From Eledone cirrhosa (taxonomy: Eukaryota): a DNA stretch of 64,000 bases. The DNA lies in assembly GCA_964016885.1 (NCBI GenBank), contig OZ024741.1, positions 70,804,001 to 70,868,000 on the forward strand. The letters run 5' to 3'. Of this stretch, positions 18,328 to 58,075 are shown in pieces. The notes under the pieces were generated by a model. The model worked only from the letters and a program-made list of their open reading frames with translations, was not told the DNA's origin and ran no database searches. A program made the position numbers and the translations under genes. The stretch's first letter is position 1. Each line of letters begins with the position of its first letter.

Positions 18328-20769
18328 TTAATTAGGTTTATAATATTTAAATGTTTTTTTTAGTTTATGATTACACGATATAATTAATTCCTGTCGTTTA
18401 TTTAATAAGATATCCCTAGACTTCATTATTTCAAATAGTTCTTGGGAACATAATCTACATTCCTTTCTATTATTTTGATAAGGGGTGGCTCTTTTGAGCA
18501 CACTCCAGGTCAAATCATATTTTATATTTTTATTTTTATAACTATTGATTTTTTCTGCTAGAGATGTTGTATTAGCCAGTGCGGCATTTTTAAAGCTATG
18601 TTTGTGGGTATTATACCTTGTCTTAAAATTGTTAGAGGTAGCTCCTATATATGAGCAAATAGAATCTTTAGTTTTAACATTACATTTATAGACTATGTTG
18701 TTAACAAGACAATTCCCTTTTAATGGGCAGTTTGTTTTGTTTCTACAGTTACATCCTTTCGTTAATTCTGTATTTGAGGAGATATTATTGTTAATTTGAT
18801 GTACTGGTGGTATACTTATGGTTTTCTTACATTTATATGCATTATATGCACTTATATTTTGTTTTATGTTATTTGTTGTAGAGTATGAGAATTTAACTGT
18901 AGACCTATTTAAGATTTGATGGTATTTGTGGTTTGGCGGGAAGTTTTTCTCAAGGATATAAAAAAATTTTTTAGCAATATTATCCTTAACTTGTAAATTA
19001 AAAGGAGCATTATACCAAGTAACTCGTCTATTACGGTTTCTATGTTGTTTATTATTTTTATTATTTTTATATGTTGCATCATGATTTTTACTAGGAGGAT
19101 TAATGTTAATGATCTCACCACAACTATTTTTAGTTATATTTGTAGATTTAGGTGTTTTATCTTTTTTATTAGGAGTTTTATTATTAATATTTATTATAGT
19201 TGTATGATGAGTAGTTTTTTGAGGGTTACTATACTTTATATTAGAAGATTTAGTATTTTGGGGTATATTGTGGGTGGCATTTAGGTGTGTACTTTTCATT
19301 TGGTGTTTGTTGGTAATATTATGCTGTATGCTTTCAGTATTTTTAGTAGAAGGTATATACTCTAATCTATTTTTGTGGCCACTTCTATCTAGAGCTTCAT
19401 TATAAAAGGTCGCATTTTTATCAAATACATCTTGGTTAGAAGAAAGGTTAGAAATTCTAAGTGATATATTATATGCAAGGTTTTTAAGGATAGATTTAGG
19501 GTGATTAGATTGTGAGTGTATGTAATGTAAGTTTTGGTTAGGTTTATGGTAAGGTTGGTATATACCCGTAGCTAAATCTAAAGTTATATCTAGGAAATTT
19601 ACTACTTTACTTGTTTTTTCAAAAGTAATATTAAGATTATAATAGTCTTTAAGGAAAGTTCTAATATGCTTTTTGTTTTTTTTGATTTCTGAAAGGCTAA
19701 GGTTGTTAGAAAGAAGAAGACAGTCATCACGATATAAACCACCTTTGAGGTGGGGAAAAGAGGCATTTATGTTGAAAAGGAGAAAGAGGCCCACAAGATC
19801 AGTAATTTGGGCGGAATCGCTTGAACCCATAGTAATATCAAAAAGATTACTGTATGTGTTTCTGGTCCAGTATTCATTCTGAAATTCAATAAGTGTTTGT
19901 CTAGCATGTGTAATAATGTTAATGTCATCCGAAGTTAAATTAGATCTATTTTTAGCAAATATTAATGCTTTGTTCAGGAGTATGGGTGATATAGAAGAAT
20001 AGTAATTATCTATATCAAATTGTAGGAAAGAAGCAGAAGATTTACACCTAATATTTTTAAACCAATTAATTACCTGGGAGGTGTTTTCCCAGAGTGGTAA
20101 AATAACGTATTTTCTTATTTGTGGGATGACTCTATCTAAAATTTTTTTGCTAATTATTCCAATATCTGATTTGGAGGGACATATAAGTCTAATAGAAGGA
20201 TTAGAGTTAAAGTTAGATTTGTGATCTTTCAGGTTGAAGTGTGGTCTTTTCAATGCCAAAGGTTCAGTTCTATCTTCAATATTTAGTTTTTTTACTATGT
20301 TGTGTGTTTTGTTGTTGATGTTGGTGAGTGACACATTATTAGATTTTTTATAATTTTTTCTGAGTTCTTTATATATGAACTCATTATAATGTTCAATATC
20401 CATATGATACAAGTTACCAGTTTTGTCCGAGTGGACATGGATTTTTTTAGACTTTTTTAGGTCCAATAGGGTAGAATCAAGGTCCTTTTGAAAGACGGAT
20501 TTATACTTTTTAAATTTGAGGTGTTTAATTAAATTAAAAAGGTCTTTCTCGAAGTCTTCAAGTAAAAAGTTGTGTGGTGGATTCTTGTAAGTATTGAAAT
20601 CATACATATATTTCCGATCTTCTTGTTTAGATTTTCTATCGAAGTGGTAGGCTCTCCATCTAACCCTTCTGATAAAATTATTAGTTTTCTGAATCATAAG
20701 GAGTAAGAAGTCGTCCTTAGAAGGTATTGGTATGTTTTTTAAGGAGGTTCCTAAATATTGTTTTTCCAT
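18328..20769 (-). CDS. PLE polyprotein: RT + CxCx5C linker + GIY-YIG endonuclease (~813 aa from ATG 20769)
   Basis: SLKNIPIPS, SDKT, QFDIDNYYSSI, TMGSSDS, GGLYRDD, NFLDITLDL, TWYNAPFN, CNCRNKTNCPLKGNC, NIVY...SYIG, FKTRY, ECRLC; no stops or frameshifts. Confidence 0.93.
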   Translation of the reverse strand: MEKQYLGTSLKNIPIPSKDDFLLLMIQKTNNFIRRVRWRAYHFDRKSKQEDRKYMYDFNTYKNPPHNFLLEDFEKDLFNLIKHLKFKKYKSVFQKDLDSTLLDLKKSKKIHVHSDKTGNLYHMDIEHYNEFIYKELRKNYKKSNNVSLTNINNKTHNIVKKLNIEDRTEPLALKRPHFNLKDHKSNFNSNPSIRLICPSKSDIGIISKKILDRVIPQIRKYVILPLWENTSQVINWFKNIRCKSSASFLQFDIDNYYSSISPILLNKALIFAKNRSNLTSDDINIITHARQTLIEFQNEYWTRNTYSNLFDITMGSSDSAQITDLVGLFLLFNINASFPHLKGGLYRDDCLLLSNNLSLSEIKKNKKHIRTFLKDYYNLNITFEKTSKVVNFLDITLDLATGIYQPYHKPNQNLHYIHSQSNHPKSILKNLAYNISLRISNLSSNQDVFDKNATFYNEALDRSGHKNRLEYIPSTKNTESIQHNITNKHQMKSTHLNATHNIPQNTKSSNIKYSNPQKTTHHTTIININNKTPNKKDKTPKSTNITKNSCGEIININPPSKNHDATYKNNKNNKQHRNRNRRVTWYNAPFNLQVKDNIAKKFFYILEKNFPPNHKYHQILNRSTVKFSYSTTNNIKQNISAYNAYKCKKTISIPPVHQINNNISSNTELTKGCNCRNKTNCPLKGNCLVNNIVYKCNVKTKDSICSYIGATSNNFKTRYNTHKHSFKNAALANTTSLAEKINSYKNKNIKYDLTWSVLKRATPYQNNRKECRLCSQELFEIMKSRDILLNKRQELIISCNHKLKKTFKYYKPN

Positions 20770-27846: not shown

Positions 27847-28499
27847 TGGATATATTTATTGGTATATTGTTCAACTGAACACGTTTCAGTGTGCCAAATA
27901 AGTAATGTCAGTTTGTATTGAATTGTTCTTGACATTTGCTGAACAATTTTAAGAGTTCTTAAACATTAGTTTAAAGTGAGCATCAACATTTGTTGACATT
28001 TACTAATACTGCAAGGGCCAAGAAGAAGCTTCTATGTGGTTGTTTGACATGTTAGAAATAGAAGCCAAATTTGACTTGAATTCTGAGGGTCAAAGAATTT
28101 AAATTATACATTATTTCGTTCATTATAGGTTGGGTGAATACATTATTTTGTATATTATAGGTTGGGAGAATGCACTGATATATCACTGCCTAGAGTTTAC
28201 ATATTTATGATAGATTTTTTAGTGTATGATCCTTTTGGGTTCATTAAATGTCCAGTCTGGTTATGGTTACCAAGTTTTAAAAAGATGGTAGTTAGAGTTT
28301 CTTGGACAATGTAGTATATTTAGATATCTAAATACAGGGGCATGACTGATCACTTCCTTTTCATGCTTGCTGCAATTGAGACCTCTGATGTCCTCAGTCC
28401 CTGAACTGCTGTTTTCCTCTGAAAAATCAGGAGTGCATTCCACCTGAGGAAGGAACCCAGAGAGGTGGTGTGCCTGATGCAGCAAGTGTCACAGGGTGT

Positions 28500-32025: not shown

Positions 32026-32526
32026 TATATATATATATATTTGAAAAAAGGAAAAGAATCACTTCGCTTGTAGTTGGTATTCTATAACAATTTAATTTTA
32101 TAATTTTACAATTTTATAATTATACTATGTATATCTAATATACACTCACTGTAAATGAGGTTGGTGTTAGGAAGGGCATCCAGCTGTAGAAATAAAGCCA
32201 GAATCAGTTCCCGTCCCACCCTTGCAAGCAGGGAAAAGTAGACGTAAAATGAAATGATGATGATGATGATGATGATGATGATATGTACATAATGAATTAT
32301 CGAAATGGTGAGTGATTTGAAATTTGAAAATGTGGGAATCCCAAATGTAGAAAAAAAAACTCTAACAACAGTCGATTGCTATAATTTCTAGCTTAGAAAA
32401 AAGGAGGAAAACACACATGGAGATGTAAATAGGTGGCTTGTAGCCCCCATGGTTTCCTAAGATATTATTCATAATTATCAACTGTTGTTACAGTTATTTT
32501 CCCACATTTTCCAATATGCATACATA

Positions 32527-32765
32527 TCATCATCGTCATCATCATCGATTAATGTCTATCTTCCACGCTAGCATGGGTTAGATGGATTTGTCCCATTTAG
32601 AGGCAAGTTGGGTCGGGCGACCGTGTCTCACTCATATAAGAGAGTTTCTGACAGGTTTTCTATGACTGGATGCCCTTCCTAATGCCAACCACATTGACAG
32701 TGTGTGCTGAGTTCTTTTACACGTCCACTTTACAGTGTGGACTGGATATTTTGTGGTACCAGTAT
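32527..32765 (-). mobile_element. RTE 3'-UTR fragment
   Basis: Reverse complement of the RTE 3' UTR with (ATC)n; other stubs at 32140-32282, 33495-33595 and 37023-37180. Confidence 0.8.
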
Positions 32766-33128
32766 AATATACATATATATATATATATACATACATGCAC
32801 ACATGATAATGATATACACAAATATAAATATTTGTGTGTGCATACATATACCTTATATGTAATATACATACACATATCAGACATATACAAACACACTTTA
32901 TATATATATATATACACACACATAAATATATCAACCTCATCAAAGAGTGTAATACTAATAATAATATGGACGAGGTGTCAAATTTTCCTTACATTCACTG
33001 TGGTGTGATGTGCGTTTCACAATTGATTAGCTCAAGGTTCGATCTGGCTCGACTATGGAATCAAAAACTCATCAGACTTCTGTTATGGTAATGACATTAT
33101 ATATTTCTATATATATAATCCTTTTATA

Positions 33129-33310
33129 AAGGCTAAATAGAGAGTCTTATTACTCTGGAGTTTTACCTGTTTCTCACAGGCTCATCAGACAAGAACCTGT
33201 GAGAAGCAGGCAAAACTCAAGAGTAACAAAACTCACTATTTAGCCTTAATGAAATGAATATTTAAACTCTACTTCGGTATTGAGTACTCTTCTCAGACGT
33301 CAATTACATA
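33129..33310. mobile_element. Fold-back hammerhead element, copy 1
   Basis: Inverted arms 33129-33180 / 33196-33247; minus-strand hammerhead 33145-33194 with GAAA read as AAAA; GTATTGAGTACT at 33277. Confidence 0.85.
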
Positions 33311-33592
33311 TGGGTATTTACACACAGTGAGATATGTGCTAGCAGCCAAAAAGTGTGATAAAGTTATATCTGTATAAATACAGTGTGTGTAAACAAGACT
33401 GCACCATTGTGTATAAATATATATACATATCTAATACGAATTTCCCTATAAATTGAAAATACATACATAAATATATATATATATATATATATACATATGA
33501 GCGAGACACGGTCACCCGACCCAACTTGCCTCAAATGGGACAAACCCGTCTAACCCATGCTAGTGTGGAAGATAGACATTAAACAATAATGA

Positions 33593-33633
<41 letters not shown>

Positions 33634-33644
33634 TATACATAAAT

Positions 33645-33681
<37 letters not shown>

Positions 33682-33838
33682 GGTGATAACTAACTGCTTC
33701 TAGCAATGAACCTACTTGCCATACGGCCTATCCTTCACAACACTTCTATCTTGACCACTAGCCACGTGATATTTCTCACCCCTTTTGAATTCATTACTAA
33801 CGGTGATCACTTTAGAAACTTTGGTCCTAACTGAGGGA

Positions 33839-35319: not shown

Positions 35320-35419
35320 GAGGTGAGTTTTATTGTAGTACAATAAAGCAATGCAGATATCGGATAAGAAGCACTCTACAGTTTGTGGGACTGGAGTATG
35401 CATAATATAAGATCAAAAC

Positions 35420-35803
35420 CTCGATAAAAACTTAATTTATGAATGTAAAATTATAACTAGCACCAATTCCTTCACCTATTTTGGCTCCACTTCCACCTCT
35501 TTTAAAGCTCGTCTCTATAATCATCATTCATCTTTCAAATACAAACTTAAAAGAACTAACACTGCTCTCTCAGAACTCATATGGTCCTTAAAAGACAAAA
35601 ACATTAAATATAACATCTTTTGGAAAAAGATTTCTTCTGCATCCTCATACTTGAACAGCTCTCTATCTAAAATCTGTAATCTCTGCCTAAATGAAAAATT
35701 TACCATTATCTCTAACCTAGATTCTATAATAAATAGACGCTCAGATTTGTTTTCTATCTGCCTGCATAAATTCCATAGAACTTTTCACAAAGTATACAGT
35801 TAA
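35420..35803 (+). pseudogene. PLE GIY-YIG endonuclease domain (no start codon, absent from the ORF track)
   Basis: Manual translation LDKNLIYECKIITSTNSFTYFGSTSTSFKARLYNHHSSFK..TALSELIWSLK..ICNLCLNEKFTI..NRRSDLFSICLH..* aligns by eye with PLE-1 and PLE-2. Confidence 0.9.
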
Positions 35804-38568: not shown

Positions 38569-39537
38569 CTGAAAATAGAAAATACAATGAAATTGATTTA
38601 CAACAATATTAAGTAATGGTATCTAATTTAAACACAAGGTCAGCAATTCAGGGAGAGGAGGGAGAGTCGATTATATCACCACCAGTATTCTACTGGTACT
38701 ATATTTTATTGACTGGATTAAAGTTAAAGTTGACCTCAGCGGGATTTTCTAACTGAAGCACAAGGCCAGGGAGAGGTGGTAAGTCAATTATATTGGTCCC
38801 AGTACTGATACTTTATCTTATCAAACGAGGAAAGATGAAAGGCAAAGTTGACCTCAGCGGATATACAAGAATAATAAATAAAGGAACACTGCATTGGAAT
38901 AAATTATTAACATAGAAAGCATGAACAGAAAATATAATCAAACAGATAGGCCTATGAACAAAGACATTCCAGTTCTGACAATTCCAGCTTATTTTCAAGT
39001 AGTAAATAATTGTTTCTACTTTTGGCACAAGGCCAGCAATTACCCAGTACATTACTGGTACTTAATATAATCCTAGATATAGCAAGTGTTGTACTGATTA
39101 TGGTGGCCACAAGGCCAACCCATGCTTTAGCAGGCAAAATGACCTTAAAAAGACTCGCTATACACAATGGTAAATACAATGATGATGATGATAACAAATG
39201 TGAATGTGGTGATGATGAAGATGATGATGAAAATAGTGATACTAGTAGTATTTGAAAGTGTTAAGTAGAATTTGATTTAATGGAAATTTGACTACTGTTT
39301 CTAGCATGTGTGTCTCTATGGTAGGTGTCCATGTTAGTGTTGCAAAATTCTTTTGAATGTCTTCATTAATATTTAAATAATAAAACATCTGGTGAATAAA
39401 TTAAATTAACTAGAAATGAAGATTGAGGTGGGAAAAGGGTGGACTGGATGTTTCAGAGTGAGGAGGGTAAGTTGGATGGGGGGGGGGGGAATAAGTATTG
39501 TCTTGGCTACATTTTACATTGGTTGTTAAATAAATTA

Positions 39538-42500
39538 ACAACAGCAGTAACAACAACAGTTACAAGAACAACAGCAGTAACAACAGTAACAACAACAGTT
39601 ACAAGAACAACAACACTAACAATAACAATAACAGTAACAATAACAATAACAACAGTAACAACAACAGTAACAAGAACAACACTAACAACAACAGTAACAA
39701 CAACAGTAACAAGAACAACACTAACAACAGTAACATTAACAACAACAGTAAGAACAACAGTAACAACAACAGTAACACTAACAACAACAGTAACAAGAAC
39801 AACAACAGTAACAAGAACAACAACACTAACAACAACAGTAACAAGAACAACAACAGTAACAAGAACAACAACACTAACAACAACAGTAACAACAACACTA
39901 ACAACAGTAACAAGAACAACAACACTAACAACAACACTAACAACAACAGTAACAACAACAGTAACAACAACAGTAACAAGAACAACAACACTAACAACAA
40001 CAGTAACAACAACAACAACAACAGTAACAACAACAACAGTAACAATAACAACAACAGTAACAAGAACAACAACACTAACAACAACAGTAACAATAACAAC
40101 AACACTAACAACAACAGTAACAAGAACAACAACACTAACAACAACACTAACAACAACAGTAACAAGAACAACAACACTAACAACAACACTAACAACAACA
40201 GTAACAAGAACAACAACACTAACAACAACAGTAACAAGAACAACAACACTAACAACAACAGTAACAACAACACTAACAACAGTAACAAGAACAACAACAC
40301 TAACAACAACACTAACAACAACAGTAACAACAACACTAACAACAACAGTAACAAGAACAACAACACTAACAACAACAGTAACAACAACAACAACAACAGT
40401 AACAACAACAACAACAGTAACAATAACAACAACAGTAACAAGAACAACAACACTAACAACAACAGTAACAATAACAACAACAGTAACAACAACAGTAACA
40501 AGAACAACAACACTAACAACAACAGTAACAAGAACAACAACACTAACAACAACACTAACAACAACAGTAACAAGAACAACAACACTAACAACAACAGTAA
40601 CAAGAACAACAACACTAACAACAACAGTAACAACAACACTAACAACAGTAACAAGAACAACAACACTAACAACAACACTAACAACAACAGTAACAACAAC
40701 ACTAACAACAACAGTAACAAGAACAACAACACTAACAACAACAGTAACAACAACAACAACAACAGTAACAACAACAACAACAGTAACAATAACAACAACA
40801 GTAACAAGAACAACAACACTAACAACAACAGTAACAATAACAACAACAGTAACAAGAACAACAACACTAACAACAACAGTAACAAGAACAACAACACTAA
40901 CAACAACAGTAACAAGAACAACAACACTAACAACAACAGTAACAACAACACTAACAACAGTAACAAGAACAACAACACTAACAACAACACTAACAACAAC
41001 AGTAACAACAACAGTAACAAGAACAACAACACTAACAACAACAGTAACAACAACACTAACAACAGTAACAAGAACAACAACACTAACAACAACACTAACA
41101 ACAACACTAACAACAACACTAACAACAACAGTAACAACAACACTAACAACAACAGTAACAAGAACAACAACACTAACAACAACAGTAACAACAACAACAA
41201 CAACAGTAACAATAACAACAACACTAACAACAACAGTAACAATAACAACAACAGTAACAACAACAGTAACAAGAACAACAACACTAACAACAACAGTAAC
41301 AAGAACAACAACACTAACAACAACAGTAACAAGAACAACACTAACAACAACAGTAACAAGAACAACAACACTAACAACAACAGTAACAACAACACTAACA
41401 ACAGTAACAAGAACAACAACACTAACAACAACACTAACAACAACAGTAACAACAACACTAACAACAACAGTAACAAGAACAACAACACTAACAACAACAG
41501 TAACAACAACAACAACAACAGTAACAACAACAACAACAGTAACAATAACAACAACAGTAACAAGAACAACAACACTAACAACAACAGTAACAATAACAAC
41601 AACAGTAACAAGAACAACAACACTAACAACAACACTAACAACAACAACAACACTAACAACAACAGTAACAAGAACAACAACACTAACAACAACAGTAACA
41701 ACAACACTAACAACAGTAACAAGAACAACAACACTAACAACAACACTAACAACAACAGTAACAACAACACTAACAACAACAGTAACAACAACAACAACAA
41801 CAGTAACAACAACAACAACAGTAACAATAACAACAACAGTAACAAGAACAACAACACTAACAACAACAGTAACAATAACAACAACAGTAACAACAACAGT
41901 AACAAGAACAACAACAGTAACAACAACACTAACAACAGTAACAAGAACAACAACACTAACAACAACACTAACAACAGTAACAACAACACTAACAACAACA
42001 GTAACAAGAACAACAACACTAACAACAACAGTAACAACAACAACAACAACAGTAACAACAACAACAACAGTAACAATAACAACAACAGTAACAACAGTAA
42101 CAATAACAACAACAGTAACAACAACAACAGTAACAAGAACAACAACACTAACAACAACAGTAACAATAACAACAACAGTAACAACAACAGTAACAAGAAC
42201 AACAACACTAACAACAACACTAACAACAACAGTAACAAGAACAACAACACTAACAACAACACTAACAACAACAGTAACAATAACAACAACAGTAACAAGA
42301 ACAACAACAGTAACAATAACAACAACAGTAACAATAACAACAACAGTAACAAGAACAACAACAGTAACAACAGTAACAATAACAACAACAGTAACAAGAA
42401 CAACAGTAACAATAACAACAACAGTAACAAGAACAACAGTAACAACAACAACAACAGTAACAACAACAACAACAGTAACAATAACAACAGTAACAATAAC

Positions 42501-42646
42501 AACAGCAGTAACAACAGCAGTAACAACAACAGTTACAATAACAATAACAACAACACTAACAACAACAACAGTAACAACAGCAGTAACAATAACAACAACA
42601 GTTACAATAACAATAACAACAACAACAACAGTAACAACAACAACAC
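39538..42646. repeat. 3.1-kb (ACA)n-based satellite with GTA/CTA/AGA/ATA variants and higher-order periodicity
   Basis: Seen directly; intronic to the host gene. Confidence 0.97.
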
Positions 42647-42734
42647 TTGTCATTGTGGGTGAACACTGCACAATTCACCAATCATAACCAGACTGTGTTG
42701 ACAAAATAATCTCAAAACTTTTCCTTTTTCTTAC

Positions 42735-45065
42735 TGATGATGGTAGTGGTGGTGGTGGTGGTATGGTGATGATGGTAGTGAATATGGTGGTGGTGGTGGT
42801 GGTATGGTGATGATGGTAGTGAATATGGTGGTGGTGGTGGTGGTATGGTGATGATGGTAGTGAATATGGTGGTGGTGGTGGTGGTAGTGAATATGGTAGT
42901 GGTGGTGGTGGTGGTATGGTGATGATGGTAGTGAATATGGTGGTGGTGGTGGTGGTATGGTGATGATGGTAGTGAATATGGTGGTGGTGGTGGTGGTAGT
43001 GAATATGGTAGTGGTGGTGGTGGTGGTATGGTGATGATGGTAGTGAATATGGTGGTGGTGGTGGTGGTATGGTGATGATGGTAGTGAATATGGTGGTGGT
43101 GGTGGTGGTAGTGAATATGGTGGTGGTGGTGGTGGTAGTGAATATGGTGGTGGTGGTGGTGGTAGTGAATATGGTGGTGGTGGTGGTGGTAGTGAATATG
43201 GTGGTGGTGGTGGTGGTGGTGGTGGTAGTGAATATGGTGGTGGTGGTGGTGGTGGTATGGTGATGATGATGGTGGTGGTGGTATGGTGATGATGGTGGTG
43301 AATATGGTGGTGGTGGTGGTATGGTGATGATGGTAGTGAATATGGTGGTGGTGGTATGGTGATGATGGTAGTGAATATGGTGGTGGTGGTGGTGGTGGTA
43401 TGGTGATGATGGTAGTGAATATGGTGGTGGTGGTGGTGGTGGTATGGTGATGATGATGGTGGTGGTGGTGGTGGTATGGTGATGATGGTGGTGAATATGG
43501 TGGTGGTGGTGGTATGGTGATGATGGTAGTGAATATGGTGGTGGTGGTATGGTGATGATGGTAGTGAATATGGTGGTGGTGGTATGGTGATGATGGTAGT
43601 GAATATGGTGGTGGTGGTATGGTGATGATGGTAGTGAATATGGTGGTGGTGGTGGTGGTATGGTGATGATGGTAGTGAATGTGGTGGTGGTGGTGGTGGT
43701 GGTGGTATGGTGGTGGTGGTGGTGGTGGTAGTGTTGGTGGTGGTGGTAGTGTTGGTGGTGGTGGTAGTGGTGGTGGTGGTGGTATGGTGATGATGAATGT
43801 GGTGATGGTGGTGGTGATGATGATTATGAATGTGGTGGTGGTGGGGAAGATAATAAAATGGTGGCAGTGATGATGAATGTGGGATGGTGATGGTGAATGT
43901 GGTGGTGGTGAAAATTATAAGATAGTGGTGATGGTGATGACAATGAATATGATGGTGGTGGTGAGGATATGATGGTGGCAGTGGTGGTGATATGATGGTG
44001 GTGGTGGTGGCGATATGATGGTGGCAGTGGTGGTGATATGATGGTGGTGGTGGTGGCGATATGATGGTGGCAGTGGTGGTGATATGATGGTGGTGGTGGT
44101 GGTGATATGATGGTGACAGTGGTGGTGATATGATGGTGGTGGTGGTGAGGATATGATGGTGGCAGTGGTGGTGGTGGTGGCGATATGATGGTGGTAGTGG
44201 TGGTGATATGATGGTGGCAGTGGTGGTGATATGATGGTGACAGTGGTGGTGATGTGGTGGTGGTGAGGATATGATGGTGGCAGTGGTGGTGGTGATGGTG
44301 GTAGTGGTGGCGATATGATAGTGACAGTGGTGGTGATATGATGGTGGTGGCGATATGATGGTGGCGGTGGTGGCGATATGATGGTGGCAGTGGTGGCGAT
44401 ATGATGGTGGCGGTGGTGGCGATATGATGGTGGCGGTGGTGGCGGTGGTGGCGATATGATGGTGGCAGTGGTGGTGATATGATAGTGACAGTGGTGGTGA
44501 TATGATGGTGGCGGTGGTGGCGATATAATGGTGGCGGTGGTGGCGATATGATGGTGGCAGTGGTGGTGATATGATGGTGGTGGTGGTGGCAACATGATAG
44601 TGACAGTGGTGGTGATATGATGGTGGCGGTGGTGGCGATATGATGGTGGCGGTGGTGGCGATATGATGGTGGCAGTGGTGGTGGTGGTGGCAATATGATA
44701 GTGACAGTGGTGGTGATATGATGGTGGCGGTGGTGGCGATATGATGGTGGCGGTGGTGGCGATATGATGGTGGCAGTGGTGGTGATATGATGGTGGTGGT
44801 GGTGGTGATATGATGGTGGCGGTGGTGATATTGATGAACAATATGATGGTGGTCATAACAGTGATGATGAATGTGCTGATGGTGGTGGTGGAGATGATGA
44901 ATGTGGGATGGAGATAGTGAATGTGGTGATGATGATGATGATGATATTAGTAATAGTAGTAGTAAATGTAATGAATACAGTGATGCTAATGGGTGTGAAT
45001 GGGGTAATGATGCTGCTGCTGATGATGATGATGATGATGAGTGTGAATGTGATTGATGATGATGA
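42735..45065. repeat. (GGT)n/(GAT)n compound satellite
   Basis: Units such as ggtagtgaatatgg, ggtatggtgatgat and gatatgatggtggc. Confidence 0.96.
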
Positions 45066-45384
45066 ATATTGTGGAGCTGGTATTGTTTGAAAGTCTTAAA
45101 AAATATGGGAAGAAATTCTTAAGATTAAAATTTAGAAGAAAGAGAGGTGAATGACTTTCTGTAATGACATATTTACGTTTCACTTCAGAACCTAAAACAC
45201 AAATTTTACGCAGTTAATAAAAACAGCAAAATCTATGAAAATTGAAAATTAACCATTTCATGACCATAATTCTAATGAAATACAGTGTCCATGTGTTTTG
45301 ATTATTTTTTTTTTAAATAATCAGATAATTTTTTAAAAATAATCAGATATTTGAAGCAGAGAGTATGGGACAATCTGCATTCAA

Positions 45385-50373: not shown

Positions 50374-50435
50374 GCAATTGACTTTTTAACTTCTAGTAGA
50401 TTATTTTTAGGTATTGTCCGTATTGGAGACAGAGA
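50374..50435 (-). CDS. PLEKHA1: PLEKHA1/2-like exon (SLSPIRTIPKNNLLEVKKSI+)
   Basis: ttttcttttccag acceptor, gtaagt donor, 62 bp, phase 0 to 2, complementing the next 64-bp exon; resembles EPLRVIPLKEV. Confidence 0.9.
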
Positions 50436-52448: not shown

Positions 52449-52561
52449 AGAGAGAAAGAGAGTTGAAGGAGACAACAAACAAGTACAAAAAGTCTTATTA
52501 ATTTCACGCTTTATATTGGAAAGAGGAAAGAAAGTTCGTGTCAGACCTAATATATATAAAT

Positions 52562-52770
52562 ATATTTATTTTATTAAGGCTAAATAGTGAGTCTTGTTAC
52601 TCTGGAGTTTTGCCTGCTTCTCACAGAGTCATCAGACAAGAACCTCTGAGAAGCAGGCAAAACTCCAGAGTAACAAGACTCACTGTTTAGCCTTAATGAA
52701 ATGAATATTTAAACTCCACTTTGGTATTGAGTACTCTTTTTTCTCAGACGTCAACTACATATGGATACAT
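52562..52770. mobile_element. Fold-back hammerhead element, copy 2
   Basis: Paralog of 33129-33310 with the same junction tcatcagacaagaacct; minus-strand hammerhead 52592-52641 (AAAA for GAAA); GTATTGAGTACT at 52724. Confidence 0.85.
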
Positions 52771-53210: not shown

Positions 53211-56200
53211 TCATCATCATCACTGTTTTACGTCCGTTCTTCCACGCTAGCATGGGTTAGACGGGTTGTCCTGTTGTGGGCAGTGTCTGGTCGGCTGACC
53301 ATGCCTTGCTCATACAGGAACTGATTTGGCTTGATTTCTACAGCTGGATGCCCTTCCTAACACCAACCTCATTTACAGTGAGTGCTGGGTGCTTTTTCGT
53401 GGCGCCTACACGTCCACTTTACAGTGTGGGCTGGGTGCTTTTTTGCCGTGGCACCTCCACGATCACCTTGCGGTGGGGGGGTATATTGTCTATATGCTTC
53501 AGCTTGAACCCATGGGAGGTCGGGTACTTTGTATTACTGCGTGACGCCAGAAGTCACGGTCGTGTGTCATTGTCTTTGAGAGGTGTAATTGGGTAAGGTC
53601 GGCTTTTATCACCTCATCCCAGGTCATCTTGGGTCTCCCCACTCCGCGGTTTCCATCAACTTCTAGTACTCTGCACCTTTTTATGCAGCTGTCATCCTTC
53701 ATACGCATCACATGTCCATACCAGCGCAACCGCCTCTCCTGCACACAGCATTTGATTCCTCTTATGCTCAGTCTCTCTCTCAATTCATTTATGCTTTGTC
53801 GTTCACGTATATTATTGTTACACATCCATCGGAGCATGCAGGCTTCGTTTCTCTCTAATCTACGTAAGTCTTCCACCTTCAGCGCCCAGGTCTCACTACC
53901 ATGCAACATCGCTGTTCGGATACACGCATCATACAGTCTGCCTTTCATTCTGAGGGAGAAGCCTTTTGCAGCTAGCAGTGGTAGTAGTTCCCTAAACTTC
54001 TTCCATCCCGTTCTTACCCTAGTTATTGCACTTTCTGAACACCCACCTCCGTTGCTAATTCGGTCACCTAGGTAGCAGAAGCTGTCTACTGTTTCTACAG
54101 GGCCCTCCCAGAGATTGGTGGTACTTGTTTCCTGTGGCTGTTTGCTGTTTGCTGTCTCAGCACAGCTGCTGCATGTGAATCCTACATTCTTAATTAAGCT
54201 TCCTGAGATCCCGCTACATCTCTTGTGTACCCATTGTTTGCATTTGGGGCAGAGAATGGAGTTCCTACCTACACCTTTCCTACATACTGAGCAAGGCCAT
54301 TTCCCTGAGGGGATCTGGGTTCTGTTTTCTCGTCTACTTACAAGGACCTTAGTCTTTGTCATGTTGACTTTGAGACCCTTTCTTTCTAGTCCCTGCTTCC
54401 AGGTTTGGAATTTATTCTCTAGTTCTACCATAGATTCAGCTATGAGTGCGAGGTCATCAGCATACAGGAGTTCCCATGGGCATCCGGTCTTAAACTCCTC
54501 CGTTATTGCCTGCAGGACTATGATGAACAGGAGAGGGCTAAGAACAGAGCCCTGGTGGACCCCAACCTGTACGCTAAATTCCTCGCTATACTCATTGCTA
54601 ATCCTAACTTTGCTGACTGCTCCCCTATACATGGCTTGTACCGCTTTCACAAGCCATTCATCTACTCCTAGTTTTCTAAGAGCCCACCAGATTACAGCAC
54701 GTGGAACTCTGTCAAAGGCTTTCTCAAGGTCGACAAATGCCAGGTAGATTGGCTTACTTTTAGCTAGGTACTTTTCCTGTAATTGCCTCACAAGGAAGAG
54801 GGCATCAGTGGTGCCTCTTCCTGGTACAAACCCAAATTGCATCTCGTCTATTTTCACCCGGTCCCTAATCAGCTGTGCTATAACTCTTTCTGTTACTTTC
54901 ATGACCTGGTCCATCAACTTTATACCTCTATAGTTTCCTCTATCTAGTGCATCGCCTTTACCTTTGTAGCAGTTGACAATGATGCTACTGCACCAATCTT
55001 TTGGTATGGCCCCTTCTAGTATTACCTGGTTAACGATACGTGTGGTTATAGTGTGACCTACAGACCCAGATGCCTTCAGCATCTCGGCAGCTATACCCGA
55101 TGGACCGGTTGCCTTCCCCATCTTCATATCTTTGATTGCCTTACTTACTACGCTGCCGCTGACTTGTACTGCTGGTCCCTCTATAGGGTCTACTTGGGGT
55201 AGGGTCTCTTCTTCCCATGCATTCTCCTCATTTAGTAATCTATCATAATGACTCTTCCATGCATCTTTCTTCTCAGCACTTGTGAGGGCAAGCTCACCTT
55301 TATCATTCCGGATACACTTCTCTCCAATGACATTACAACTATCTCTGACACACTGCCTCGCAATCTTGAATACCTCCCGTTTCTGGTCCTCACGTTGTAA
55401 AACATGCTTGAATTTTCTATCCTCTGCTTCCCTCCTAGCTAACTATACTTGTCGCCTAGCTTCCCTCTTGGTCTCTATGTAATGTACCCTGCTCCCCCCG
55501 TTCTTCCATTCTTTCCATGCCTGTCTCTTGGCCTTGACTGCTTCATCTACCTTATTGTTCCACCACCAAGTCACTCTCCTCCTGCTTGAGGTCTTACTCC
55601 AGCCACAGACCTCATCCGTCGCCTCTAGTAAATTATTTTTTAGGAACTCCCAGTTCTCTTCTACGTTAAATGTCTCTATCTGTTCTTCTTTACTGTCGTA
55701 GGCGTTGAGTAAAATATCTTTAAATCTGTTACTGGTTGAGGGGACTTTCAGCTTCCAGATCTTTCTTCTCCAGGTTGGCCTCTGTTTCCGGGTTCGTCTA
55801 GTTCTGACCGTGAGGTCGCTGACAACTAAGCTATGTTGGGATGTACATTCCTCACTAGGGAAGGCTTTTGTGTTTACGACCGTCCATCTGTCACGTCCTC
55901 TGATGAGGATAAAATCTAACTGACTAGAGTGCTCCCCTGATCTATAGGTGATCAGGTGGTTGTCGGGTTTTTTAAAGTTTGTGTTACATATCGACATGTC
56001 ATTGGCGTCGCAGAATTCTAGAAGTCTGCATCCTTCCTCATTCCTTGTGCCAACCTCATGGCCTCCATGTACTCTATTGAAGCCGTCGCAGTGTTTACCT
56101 ACGTGTCCGTTAAAATCTCCTGCGATGATTAGGAAGTCCTTGTCGTCTGTTAGAGCAGTAGTGTGTATTAGGGACTCGTAAAACCTATCCTTAAGTTCGT

Positions 56201-56212
56201 CTGGCAGCCCCG

Positions 56213-56213
<1 letters not shown>
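53211..56213 (-). mobile_element. RTE-clade LINE, young, 5'-truncated within the APE domain
   Basis: One reading frame from ~56213 to 53499 with a single TAG at 55443-55445; APE GDFN, RT motifs, 3' UTR and (GAT)n tail. Confidence 0.95.
53499..56213 (-). pseudogene. RTE APE-RT polyprotein with a PHD finger inserted in the RT; one premature stop
   Basis: IIAGDFNGHVG, SQLDFIL, SQHSLV, NYRGIKL, FVDLEKAFDRVP, QGSVLSP, YADD, C4HC3 at 54162-54293, YLG, GRPKMTW. Confidence 0.92.
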
Positions 56214-56887: not shown

Positions 56888-57080
56888 ATATATATATTAT
56901 TTCTGTTTGCTTTTTGCATATATTTGCATATATATATATGTATATATATGCAAAAGGCAAACAGAAATAACGAAGCAAACAAATACGTGTTTGTGTGTGT
57001 GTGTGTGTAATCATTCATCATTTAATGTCTGTTATTCCATGTGGGAATGTAATTACTGAAAATGATAAAAAAAAACTTAC

Positions 57081-57149
57081 TTGTTCTGATTGATAATAAG
57101 AAATTCCATGATCTGTGAGTACAAAAAATCTCCGTTTCCAGCTTTTCCG
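57081..57149 (-). CDS. PLEKHA1: PLEKHA1/2-like exon (RKSWKRRFFVLTDHGISYYQSEQ), PH beta2-beta3
   Basis: tcctttag acceptor, gtaagt donor, 69 bp; resembles [22 protein letters not shown]. Confidence 0.95.
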
Positions 57150-57903: not shown

Positions 57904-58075
57904 TATATGAGTTGATAATTGTTTCTACTTTTGGCACAAGGCCAGCAATTATCCCAGTGTATTACTGGTACTTTATTTTATCATCCTTACGGGGTCGATA
58001 AAATAAAGTACCAGTAATACACTGAGATAATTGCTGTCCTTGTGCCAAAAGTAGAAACAATTATCAACTTATATA
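57904..58075. repeat. Inverted duplication of a SINE 3' half plus flank (hairpin)
   Basis: ~79-bp arms with few mismatches around loop 57983-57996. Confidence 0.9.

What the first reader, a model, noticed from the sequence alone, without database searches (positions are those of the whole stretch)
33129..33310. Two dispersed fold-back hammerhead elements share an identical inversion junction and the same core substitution
Seen: 33129-33310 and 52562-52770 are paralogs in different flanks, both joined at ...tcatcagacaaga|acct... All four arms read AAAA where the core requires GAAA (G12, the general base). Established: G12 is essential for hammerhead catalysis. Inference: either the hairpin itself is amplified as a ribozyme-dead non-autonomous element, or snap-back is sequence-determined. 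Copy 2 lies in an intron of the PLEKHA-like gene with its complete fold on the sense strand, where a dead ribozyme would be tolerated.
Basis: partly seen in the sequence, partly recalled or inferred. Interest (0 to 1): 0.75.

Follow-up and report, generated by a model that had tools for sequence, protein, structure and literature searches.

The report
Penelope hairpin stubs, occasionally re-copied nearby
These two hairpins are sister copies of one old, cut-short insertion of a known jumping gene; the family's many other hairpins have varied joints and mostly keep the ribozyme's key base, so they were likely built anew at each insertion rather than spreading as a ribozyme-dead element.

Summary
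The two fold-backs are real: 89% alike, same joint, AAAA in all four arms, unlike flanks. Only the left arms carry a whole hammerhead. They belong to a large family (2,760 first-look candidates) of head-to-head 3' ends of a Hydra-clade Penelope-like element in (TA)n. There are 80 different joints among 87 copies, G12 is intact in 119 of 143 arms, and AAAA is decay of a CpG. Arms resemble their own partner, not same-side arms elsewhere. Outer ends sit at two fixed points 59 nt apart. No inner end passes one base 9 nt before the core (0 of 176 arms), which matches a TATA/initiator-like start site: likely run-off copies of uncut RNA primed from both DNA ends. The window joint occurs at only 4 loci. 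The pair shares it by descent, through a likely one-off short-range copy between microsatellites; two more such pairs turned up. The hairpin itself blocks the ribozyme fold, so G12 loss is not needed for intron tolerance. The scan reported two-armed run-off stubs before on other DNA.

The parts
33115..33196 (-). Copy 1, untailed arm: positions -8 to +73 of the element's 3' end (C3 = 0); complete type I hammerhead motif with G12A and C11.1U
33196..33316 (+). Copy 1, tailed arm: +8/+9 to +132; lacks CUGAUGA; includes the 59-nt tail (about 33262-33316)
33190..33200 (.). Head-to-head joint of copy 1, with a short overlap between arms; found at 4 loci genome-wide with at most 1 mismatch
33150..33151 (-). 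Predicted hammerhead cut site of copy 1 (after GUA); the arm runs across it, so its template was uncut or rejoined (inference)
   Evidence: sequence
52562..52643 (-). Copy 2, untailed arm: -8 to +73; complete hammerhead motif with G12A, on the host gene's sense strand
52643..52767 (+). Copy 2, tailed arm: +8/+9 to +132, with 59-nt tail
33101..33115 (.). Decayed (TA)n target left of copy 1; a like tract lies at about 52550-52562 left of copy 2, and short TA/(CA)n runs follow both tails
32281..33753 (.). 1.5-kb stretch around copy 1 that is duplicated on contig C1 at about 99.176 Mb (third sister, 88.6% identical)
57081..57149 (-). PH-domain exon 5' of the intron that holds copy 2
50374..50435 (-). 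PH-domain exon 3' of the intron that holds copy 2 (phase fits; predicted). Further exons 49401-49339 and 45921-45841
28270..28443 (-). Candidate last exon of the same gene; if right, copy 1 is also intronic on the same strand (predicted, unconfirmed)
   Evidence: the only candidate passing the filter between 45840 and 21500

Best explanation
The hairpins are head-to-head stubs of the 3' end of a Hydra-clade Penelope-like retrotransposon, likely built anew at each insertion, and the two window copies are sisters of one insertion that was likely copied once over 19 kb. Shown: the family, its parent with a GIY-YIG frame, two fixed outer ends 59 nt apart, varied joints, a hard inner limit at -9, G12 in a CpG, arms pairing by locus. 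Inferred: the element's endonuclease cuts (TA)n; both DNA ends prime reverse transcription, one at +73 and one at +132, on an uncut RNA that starts at -9 behind a TATA/initiator-like promoter; both copies run off the RNA's 5' end and are end-joined with trimming. Inferred: G12A arose by CpG deamination in, or in the template of, the pair's common ancestor. Inferred: soon after insertion the whole stub was copied to, or converted onto, a second microsatellite-flanked site nearby. A DNA repair route is somewhat more likely than an RNA route; the two are not separated here.
For: Parent: copies that go on upstream without folding back; one continuous copy links a broken GIY-YIG frame with CxCX5C, CxxC and CxH motifs, a 1.5-kb untranslated stretch and the hammerhead end (L243). 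Outer ends: +74 in 27 of 50 short arms and +133 in 23 of 50 long arms by alignment end; 26 and 22 of 47 in a second sample. Joints: 80 distinct of 87; 28 overlaps, 19 blunt, 33 with 1-13 extra bases, 7 longer. Inner ends: 0 of 176 arms beyond -9, 43 at -9 to -7. TATTTATA lies at -30 to -23 from that base, with a TTAGTTC initiator-like word on it, each position kept in 24-29 of 31 long copies. G12: dinucleotide CG 61, TG 45, CA 21, TA 2; tail CpGs decay as much or more (CA 24 vs CG 26; CA 17 vs CG 32); in the window copies' own subfamily 45 of 55 arms keep G. Arms: own partner 13.5% divergent vs 17.9% for shuffled pairs, 0 of 2,000 shuffles as low; A-A 17.9, B-B 18.3, A-B 17.9%. Sisters: 17 differences in 186 sites, 9 shared derived (3 of 739 other pairs reach 9). 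Two more pairs with a shared joint and unlike flanks lie 95 kb and 6.2 Mb apart; the joint of the 6.2-Mb pair occurs at exactly 2 loci, the other was not counted genome-wide. Literature: both strands cut and extended, two RT start sites bounding the tail, hammerhead cleavage not needed (PMC11167929).
Against: A nearest-neighbour count leaned to same-side arms (31 vs 15; 121 of 5,000 permutations), falling to 24 vs 16 (836 of 5,000) without the CpG site; the aggregate test showed nothing (160 of 300). Arm pairing by locus could also come from conversion inside each hairpin. Joint variety could partly be later deletion of palindrome centres. The start site is read from motifs only. The anole protein needs RNA beyond the start sites, and no intact coding copy of this family was found. 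Six elements with failed or doubtful arm alignments were dropped before the pooled counts. The samples are the first 50 of 164 and the first 50 of 213 exact-anchor hits, all from C1-C3, so sisters on other contigs would be missed. The same joint class recurs in unrelated copies (L005, L123), so it is mildly favoured by sequence.
Confidence: 0.72

Rival explanations
1. Family as above, but the sisters arose through RNA: host intron RNA carrying the hairpin was primed by a Penelope-type enzyme at the +73 site, copied through the whole hairpin and joined at the TA/CA run behind the tail, close to where it was transcribed.
For: Both copies lie with the +73 site on the host gene's sense strand (copy 1 only if the 28443 exon is right). 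The C1 duplicate begins exactly at the tailed end of another two-armed family and ends inside a repeat that is continuous in the window, so the window is the likely donor. Its untailed arm has 7 A-to-G differences from the family majority, against at most 3 in the other 144 arms. Trans-mobilisation of host sequence by pLTRs is described (PMC3846280 passages).
Against: That arm also carries about as many other changes, three of the A-to-G are adjacent and one is an ancestral variant; the tailed arm shows none. PLE ends always abut (TA)n, so a DNA route gives the same boundary. All three sister pairs are on one chromosome within 6.2 Mb, which is not expected of freely diffusing RNA. In vitro the protein needs RNA 3' of the start sites, which stubs lack.
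Confidence: 0.2
2. The hairpin is a ribozyme-dead non-autonomous element, amplified as a unit.
For: Three sister pairs share joints in unlike flanks; weak same-side neighbour excess.
Against: 80 of 87 joints differ; G12 kept in 119 of 143 arms and A in both arms in only 4 of 87 elements; neither joint counted genome-wide exceeded 4 loci; no arm-specific allele among 69 sites (smallest p 0.028 uncorrected).
Confidence: 0.03
3. Snap-back: one cDNA folds on itself at a sequence-determined point and is copied back, as proposed for palindromic PLE joints (self-priming, PMC3846280).
For: 28 of 87 joints have short overlaps; stem I gives the cDNA a self-complementary end at -9, and two copies join -9/-8 to +37/+38 (L162, L166); arms pair by locus.
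Against: Copy-back from the tailed cDNA needs the tailed arm to reach further 5', but the untailed arm does so in 41 of 75 (20 reverse). Blunt, loop-less joints occur (L128, L150, L078). Copy-back from the untailed cDNA cannot supply the tail.
Confidence: 0.1
4. The -9 limit is not a transcription start but a cut after the upstream GAAACGUU word, a splice acceptor (TTAG), or a stall at the outer edge of stem I. This concerns one step only.
For: GAAACGTT ends exactly at -10 and resembles the helix III and cut site of other minimal hammerheads in the window; stem I extends to -9; in D. virilis Penelope the intron ends at helix I (PMC4209133).
Against: No CUGAUGA or stem II was seen for the upstream word; arms keep the AG, and I saw no common upstream exon at joints (read by eye); TATA-like and initiator-like words have canonical spacing.
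Confidence: 0.3

Closest known systems
Insertion unit of endonuclease-bearing Penelope-like elements: inverted 5'-truncated copy plus one-sided 30-40-bp tail (Craig et al. 2021, PMC8557442; passages read)
   Same: Head-to-head arms, tail on one arm, type I hammerhead in the end repeat, microsatellite targets.
   Different: Most sampled copies are about 200 bp, both arms stop at or inside one fixed base, and the tail is 59 nt.
Hydra clade of PLEs (Craig et al. 2021; passages of section 11 read)
   Same: C-terminal GIY-YIG with CxCX5C linker, CxxC and CxH motifs, hammerhead, (TA)n insertion.
   Different: Parent end includes a 1.5-kb untranslated stretch; only broken coding copies seen; no tree built; not compared with named Hydra families.
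PAc Poseidon element of Anolis (Frangieh et al. 2024, PMC11167929; parts 1-2 of 4 read)
   Same: Two fixed RT start points bounding the tail, AT-rich targets, both strands extended, uncut RNA as template.
   Different: That work does not treat the head-to-head joint or a run-off limit in the parts read; different clade.
Minimal PLE hammerheads, including pairs 100-700 bp apart on opposite strands (Cervera and de la Pena 2014, PMC4209133; parts 1-2 of 4 read)
   Same: Type I motif with short helix III, dispersed truncated copies, opposite-strand pairs.
   Different: The family majority has C.C or C.U where G10.1-C11.1 is conserved, so it may be weak even with G12.
MITEs and non-LTR retrozymes (retrozymes: bioRxiv 10.64898/2026.07.22.740005, part 1 of 5 read; MITE features recalled)
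   Same: Small, non-coding, high copy, hairpin or hammerhead.
   Different: No fixed internal structure, unequal ends, no tandem arrays seen; the parent is a retroelement 3' end.

Membership tests
EN+ Penelope-like element insertion | Linked to an ORF with RT and GIY-YIG | tested here: met
   GIY-YIG remnant continuous with the hammerhead end in L243/L251, also L225, L233; RT remnant adjacent but inverted in L251, so the RT link is likely, not proven
EN+ Penelope-like element insertion | Inverted 5'-truncated copy at the 5' end | tested here: met
   short arms; long-armed cases L048, L050/L057, L065, L068
EN+ Penelope-like element insertion | Tail on one end only | tested here: met
   44 of 50 have one tailed and one untailed arm; a few have two tails (L035, L156)
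EN+ Penelope-like element insertion | Target-site duplication | tested here: inconclusive
   insertions lie in (TA)n, where a duplication cannot be read
Hydra clade | CxCX5C linker, CxxC and CxH around the EN core | tested here: met
   L251 minus-strand frame
Hydra clade | RWK and DKT motifs in the N-terminal part | tested here: inconclusive
   parent copies are too broken there; present only in the unrelated window ORF
Hydra clade | Placement in the clade by RT tree | not tested
   no reference set in session
Hydra clade | (TA)n insertion | tested here: met
Type I hammerhead ribozyme | CUGAUGA, GAAA and NUH in order C-G-S with helices I-III | tested here: met
   family majority folds this way at -9.0 kcal/mol against an MFE of -12.6; window copies have A12
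Type I hammerhead ribozyme | G10.1-C11.1 pair | tested here: not met
   C at +7 in 56 of 76 arms; C or T at +23 in 84 of 92
Type I hammerhead ribozyme | Self-cleavage | not testable with these tools
   only a weak hint: 10 arms end within +36..+40, and both arms of L130 do
Non-autonomous element amplified as a unit (MITE-like) | Fixed internal structure across copies | tested here: not met
   80 joints among 87
Non-autonomous element amplified as a unit (MITE-like) | Left and right arms form separate lineages | tested here: not met
   weak contrary signal
Non-LTR retrozyme | Tandem units each with a hammerhead | tested here: not met
   no head-to-tail unit seen in the sampled loci; no dedicated genome-wide search

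The most novel reading that the evidence does not exclude
Dead Penelope hairpin stubs get a second life: Penelope enzymes prime on stub ends inside nascent host intron RNA and paste whole hairpins, and flanking intron DNA, into nearby or distant TA microsatellites, writing RNA edits into the genome; this would be a local, host-transcript-driven retroposition route.
Probability: 0.2. Interest if true: 0.65.

Novelty: new member of a known kind. Interest (0 to 1): 0.3.

Why it matters
It removes a false lead: there is no ribozyme-dead hairpin element, and G12A is ordinary CpG decay. The family still gives a clean genomic footprint for an open question, how Penelope-like elements make inverted ends: two fixed priming points, a run-off limit at a predicted start site, and templates that cross the ribozyme's cut site. 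The sister pairs show that microsatellite-flanked stubs are now and then copied whole over short distances, which inflates apparent insertion counts and can mimic a mobile hairpin.

Tried and rejected
Rfam: no hammerhead family in the 150 rows shown; microsatellite noise. Repeat finder: swamped by (TA)n. First 30 hits were biased to the query's joint and not used for joint frequencies. Local tandem duplication with flanks: no diagonal. A G12A subfamily: 10 of 55 arms. MITE, retrozyme and snap-back readings: see rivals. An upstream second hammerhead on GAAACGUU: no core or stem II seen. The window's intact ORF (18331-20769) as partner: no link found; its neighbours do not carry this end. An intact coding copy of the family: not found in 30 upstream loci and 5 extended ones. 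Neptune assignment was dropped after reading the Hydra description. Pfam gave no PH hit on short exons and no hit on the PLE ORF. Sequencing runs: no RNA holder listed. Three DNA runs of one sample were laid on copy 2; no contig spans it and depths are not copy numbers. Paper searches listed nothing whose title or abstract start describes short-range copying of PLE stubs between microsatellites; only listings were seen for most, and supplements of Craig 2021 (family sequences) were not opened, so this family may already be named there.

Full report
Observation. The two stretches are real paralogs, 89.5% identical over 209 nt, with no third copy in the window. Each folds as a 55-60-bp hairpin far beyond shuffled controls. 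I number positions from C3 of CUGAUGA as 0. Each copy has an untailed arm on the minus strand (-8 to +73) and a tailed arm on the plus strand (+8/+9 to +132). Only the untailed arms hold a whole hammerhead motif. All four arms have A at the G12 position. G12A slows cleavage 500-fold to about a million-fold (PMC2553840, passages). Flanks are not homologous. Copy 2 lies between predicted minus-strand PH-domain exons 57149-57081 and 50435-50374. Copy 1 may lie in a later intron if the candidate exon at 28443 is real.

The family. The window is C2:70.80-70.87 Mb of a 3.0-Gb genome. Copy 2 drew 2,760 first-look candidates; all 40 scored were fold-backs. Joint-blind patterns gave 164 and 213 exact-anchor loci. 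From per-site change rates I estimate a few thousand copies; this is an inference. I analysed the 50 listed loci of the first pattern, and 47 of the 50 listed of the second (one non-member and one of each sister pair left out). Six elements with failed or doubtful alignments were dropped before pooling.

The parent. Copies exist that go on upstream instead of folding back. Walking upstream reached a continuous copy with a broken C-terminal GIY-YIG frame, about 1.5 kb of untranslated sequence and the hammerhead end (L243/L251). It carries CxCX5C, CxxC and CxH motifs, and an RT remnant lies next to it, inverted. Those motifs, the hammerhead and the (TA)n targets match the Hydra clade as described by Craig et al. 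2021 (passages). The same paper describes the inverted 5'-truncated copy and the one-sided tail as usual for PLEs. Cervera and de la Pena 2014 report hammerhead pairs 100-700 bp apart on opposite strands.

G12. The base sits in a CpG with C11.1. Over 87 elements the dinucleotide is CG 61, TG 45, CA 21, TA 2; G is kept in 119 of 143 arms, and both arms have A in 4 of 87 elements. Two CpGs in the tail decay as much or more. In the window copies' own subfamily 45 of 55 arms keep G. There is no dead subfamily. The majority lacks the G10.1-C11.1 pair, so it may be a weak ribozyme anyway. In either copy the fold-back leaves stem I with pair probability about 0 on the gene's strand, so G12 status does not matter for intron tolerance.

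Joints and arms. There are 80 distinct joints among 87 copies. The window joint occurs at 4 loci with at most one mismatch: the two copies, a duplicate of copy 1 on C1, and one on C7. Arms are closer to their own partner (13.5%) than to arms elsewhere (17.9%; 0 of 2,000 shuffles as low), and tailed-tailed, untailed-untailed and mixed comparisons are alike. Against this, a nearest-neighbour count leaned to same-side arms (31 vs 15, 121 of 5,000 permutations), and lost significance without the CpG site (836 of 5,000). Conversion inside hairpins could add to the pairing.

Mechanism. Outer ends cluster at two points 59 nt apart. For an anole PLE, both target strands are cut and extended, RT starts at two internal sites that bound the tail, and hammerhead mutants insert normally (PMC11167929, parts 1-2). 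Inner ends never pass -9 in 176 arms, and 43 lie at -9 to -7; the second pattern allowed longer arms. Longer-armed copies exist as a smaller class (191 candidates for the upstream part). The base at -9 lies in an initiator-like word with TATTTATA 30 to 23 nt before it; a TATA and initiator in a pLTR were also noted in a rotifer PLE (PMC3846280), while D. virilis Penelope has a TATA-less internal promoter (PMC2377424, passages). I infer two cDNAs that run off the RNA's 5' end and are end-joined. Copy-back from one cDNA fits poorly, since the untailed arm is the longer in 41 of 75. Ten arms end within +36..+40, a weak hint that some templates were cut.

Why the window pair match. They differ at 17 of 186 sites and share 9 derived states; 3 of 739 other pairs reach 9. 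The shared states lie in both arms or in the tail, except one at +63 that the C1 duplicate lacks. They therefore split at about the time of insertion (inference). Among 124 two-armed places, two more pairs share joints and arm-specific changes in unlike flanks: 95 kb apart at 93.6% and 6.2 Mb apart at 90.6%. The latter joint occurs at exactly 2 loci. Homology stops in the flanking microsatellites. Short range suggests repair-type copying or conversion between TA tracts. An RNA route stays open: the 1.5-kb C1 duplicate starts at the tailed end of another two-armed family, ends inside a repeat that is whole in the window, and has 7 A-to-G differences in one arm against at most 3 in 144 others, though with as many other changes.

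Earlier notes. I reached the two-end priming and -9 readings (notes), whose note e1-8665316 already spoke of two ends 59 bases apart, and, which show the scan reported run-off stubs several times on other DNA. These are unchecked AI notes, not support.

Verdict. A real but ordinary PLE insertion scar. The headline inference is refuted. The fixed inner limit and the occasional sister copies are modest extras. The organism was not determined here; earlier notes call it octopus-like.

Noticed in passing
window 18331-20769 (-): Uninterrupted 813-aa ORF with Hydra-type marks (RWR, DKT, YRDD, CxCX5C, CxxC, CxH); no Pfam hit at E 0.05. Possibly a young intact PLE of another family.
   Followed up: partly
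window 32281-33753; L143 (C1 about 99.176 Mb): 1.5-kb duplicate on another chromosome, starting at a PLE-type tailed end, with an A-to-G-rich hairpin arm; possible edited retrocopy of intron RNA.
   Followed up: partly
window 32281-32520: Two-armed stub of another family with outer ends about 40 nt apart; 512 candidates.
   Followed up: partly
window 32945-33105: Another repeat (1,771 candidates) with inverted pairs elsewhere and a CUGAUGA at 33075 on the minus strand, directly abutting copy 1.
   Followed up: no
window about 5280 (+) and 25933 (-): Minimal hammerheads of other families with intact GAAAC and a paired stem II.
   Followed up: no
window 35411-35800 (+): GIY-YIG fragment of another PLE, below the Pfam cut-off.
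   Followed up: no
window 53499-56213 (-), also 22.1-23.6, 46.4-48.1, 51.0-52.0 kb (+): LINE copies with RT and a PHD-like finger inside the ORF.
   Followed up: no
window 39427-45118: About 5.7 kb of degenerate trinucleotide arrays giving stop-free frames over 1,000 codons.
   Followed up: no
window 57921-58061 and 56897-56970: Two further DNA hairpins that score below threshold on miRNA models.
   Followed up: no
L251:908-4107: Long parent copy whose RT part is inverted against its C-terminal part, like a twin-priming inversion.
   Followed up: partly
L130; L035, L156: One copy with both arms ending at the predicted cut site; two copies with a tail on both arms.
   Followed up: no
position +63 in window copies and L124/L125: Two of three sister pairs carry AATGAA for AATAAA in the tailed arm, against 4 of 79 arms overall; could be chance or loss of a poly(A) signal.
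   Followed up: no
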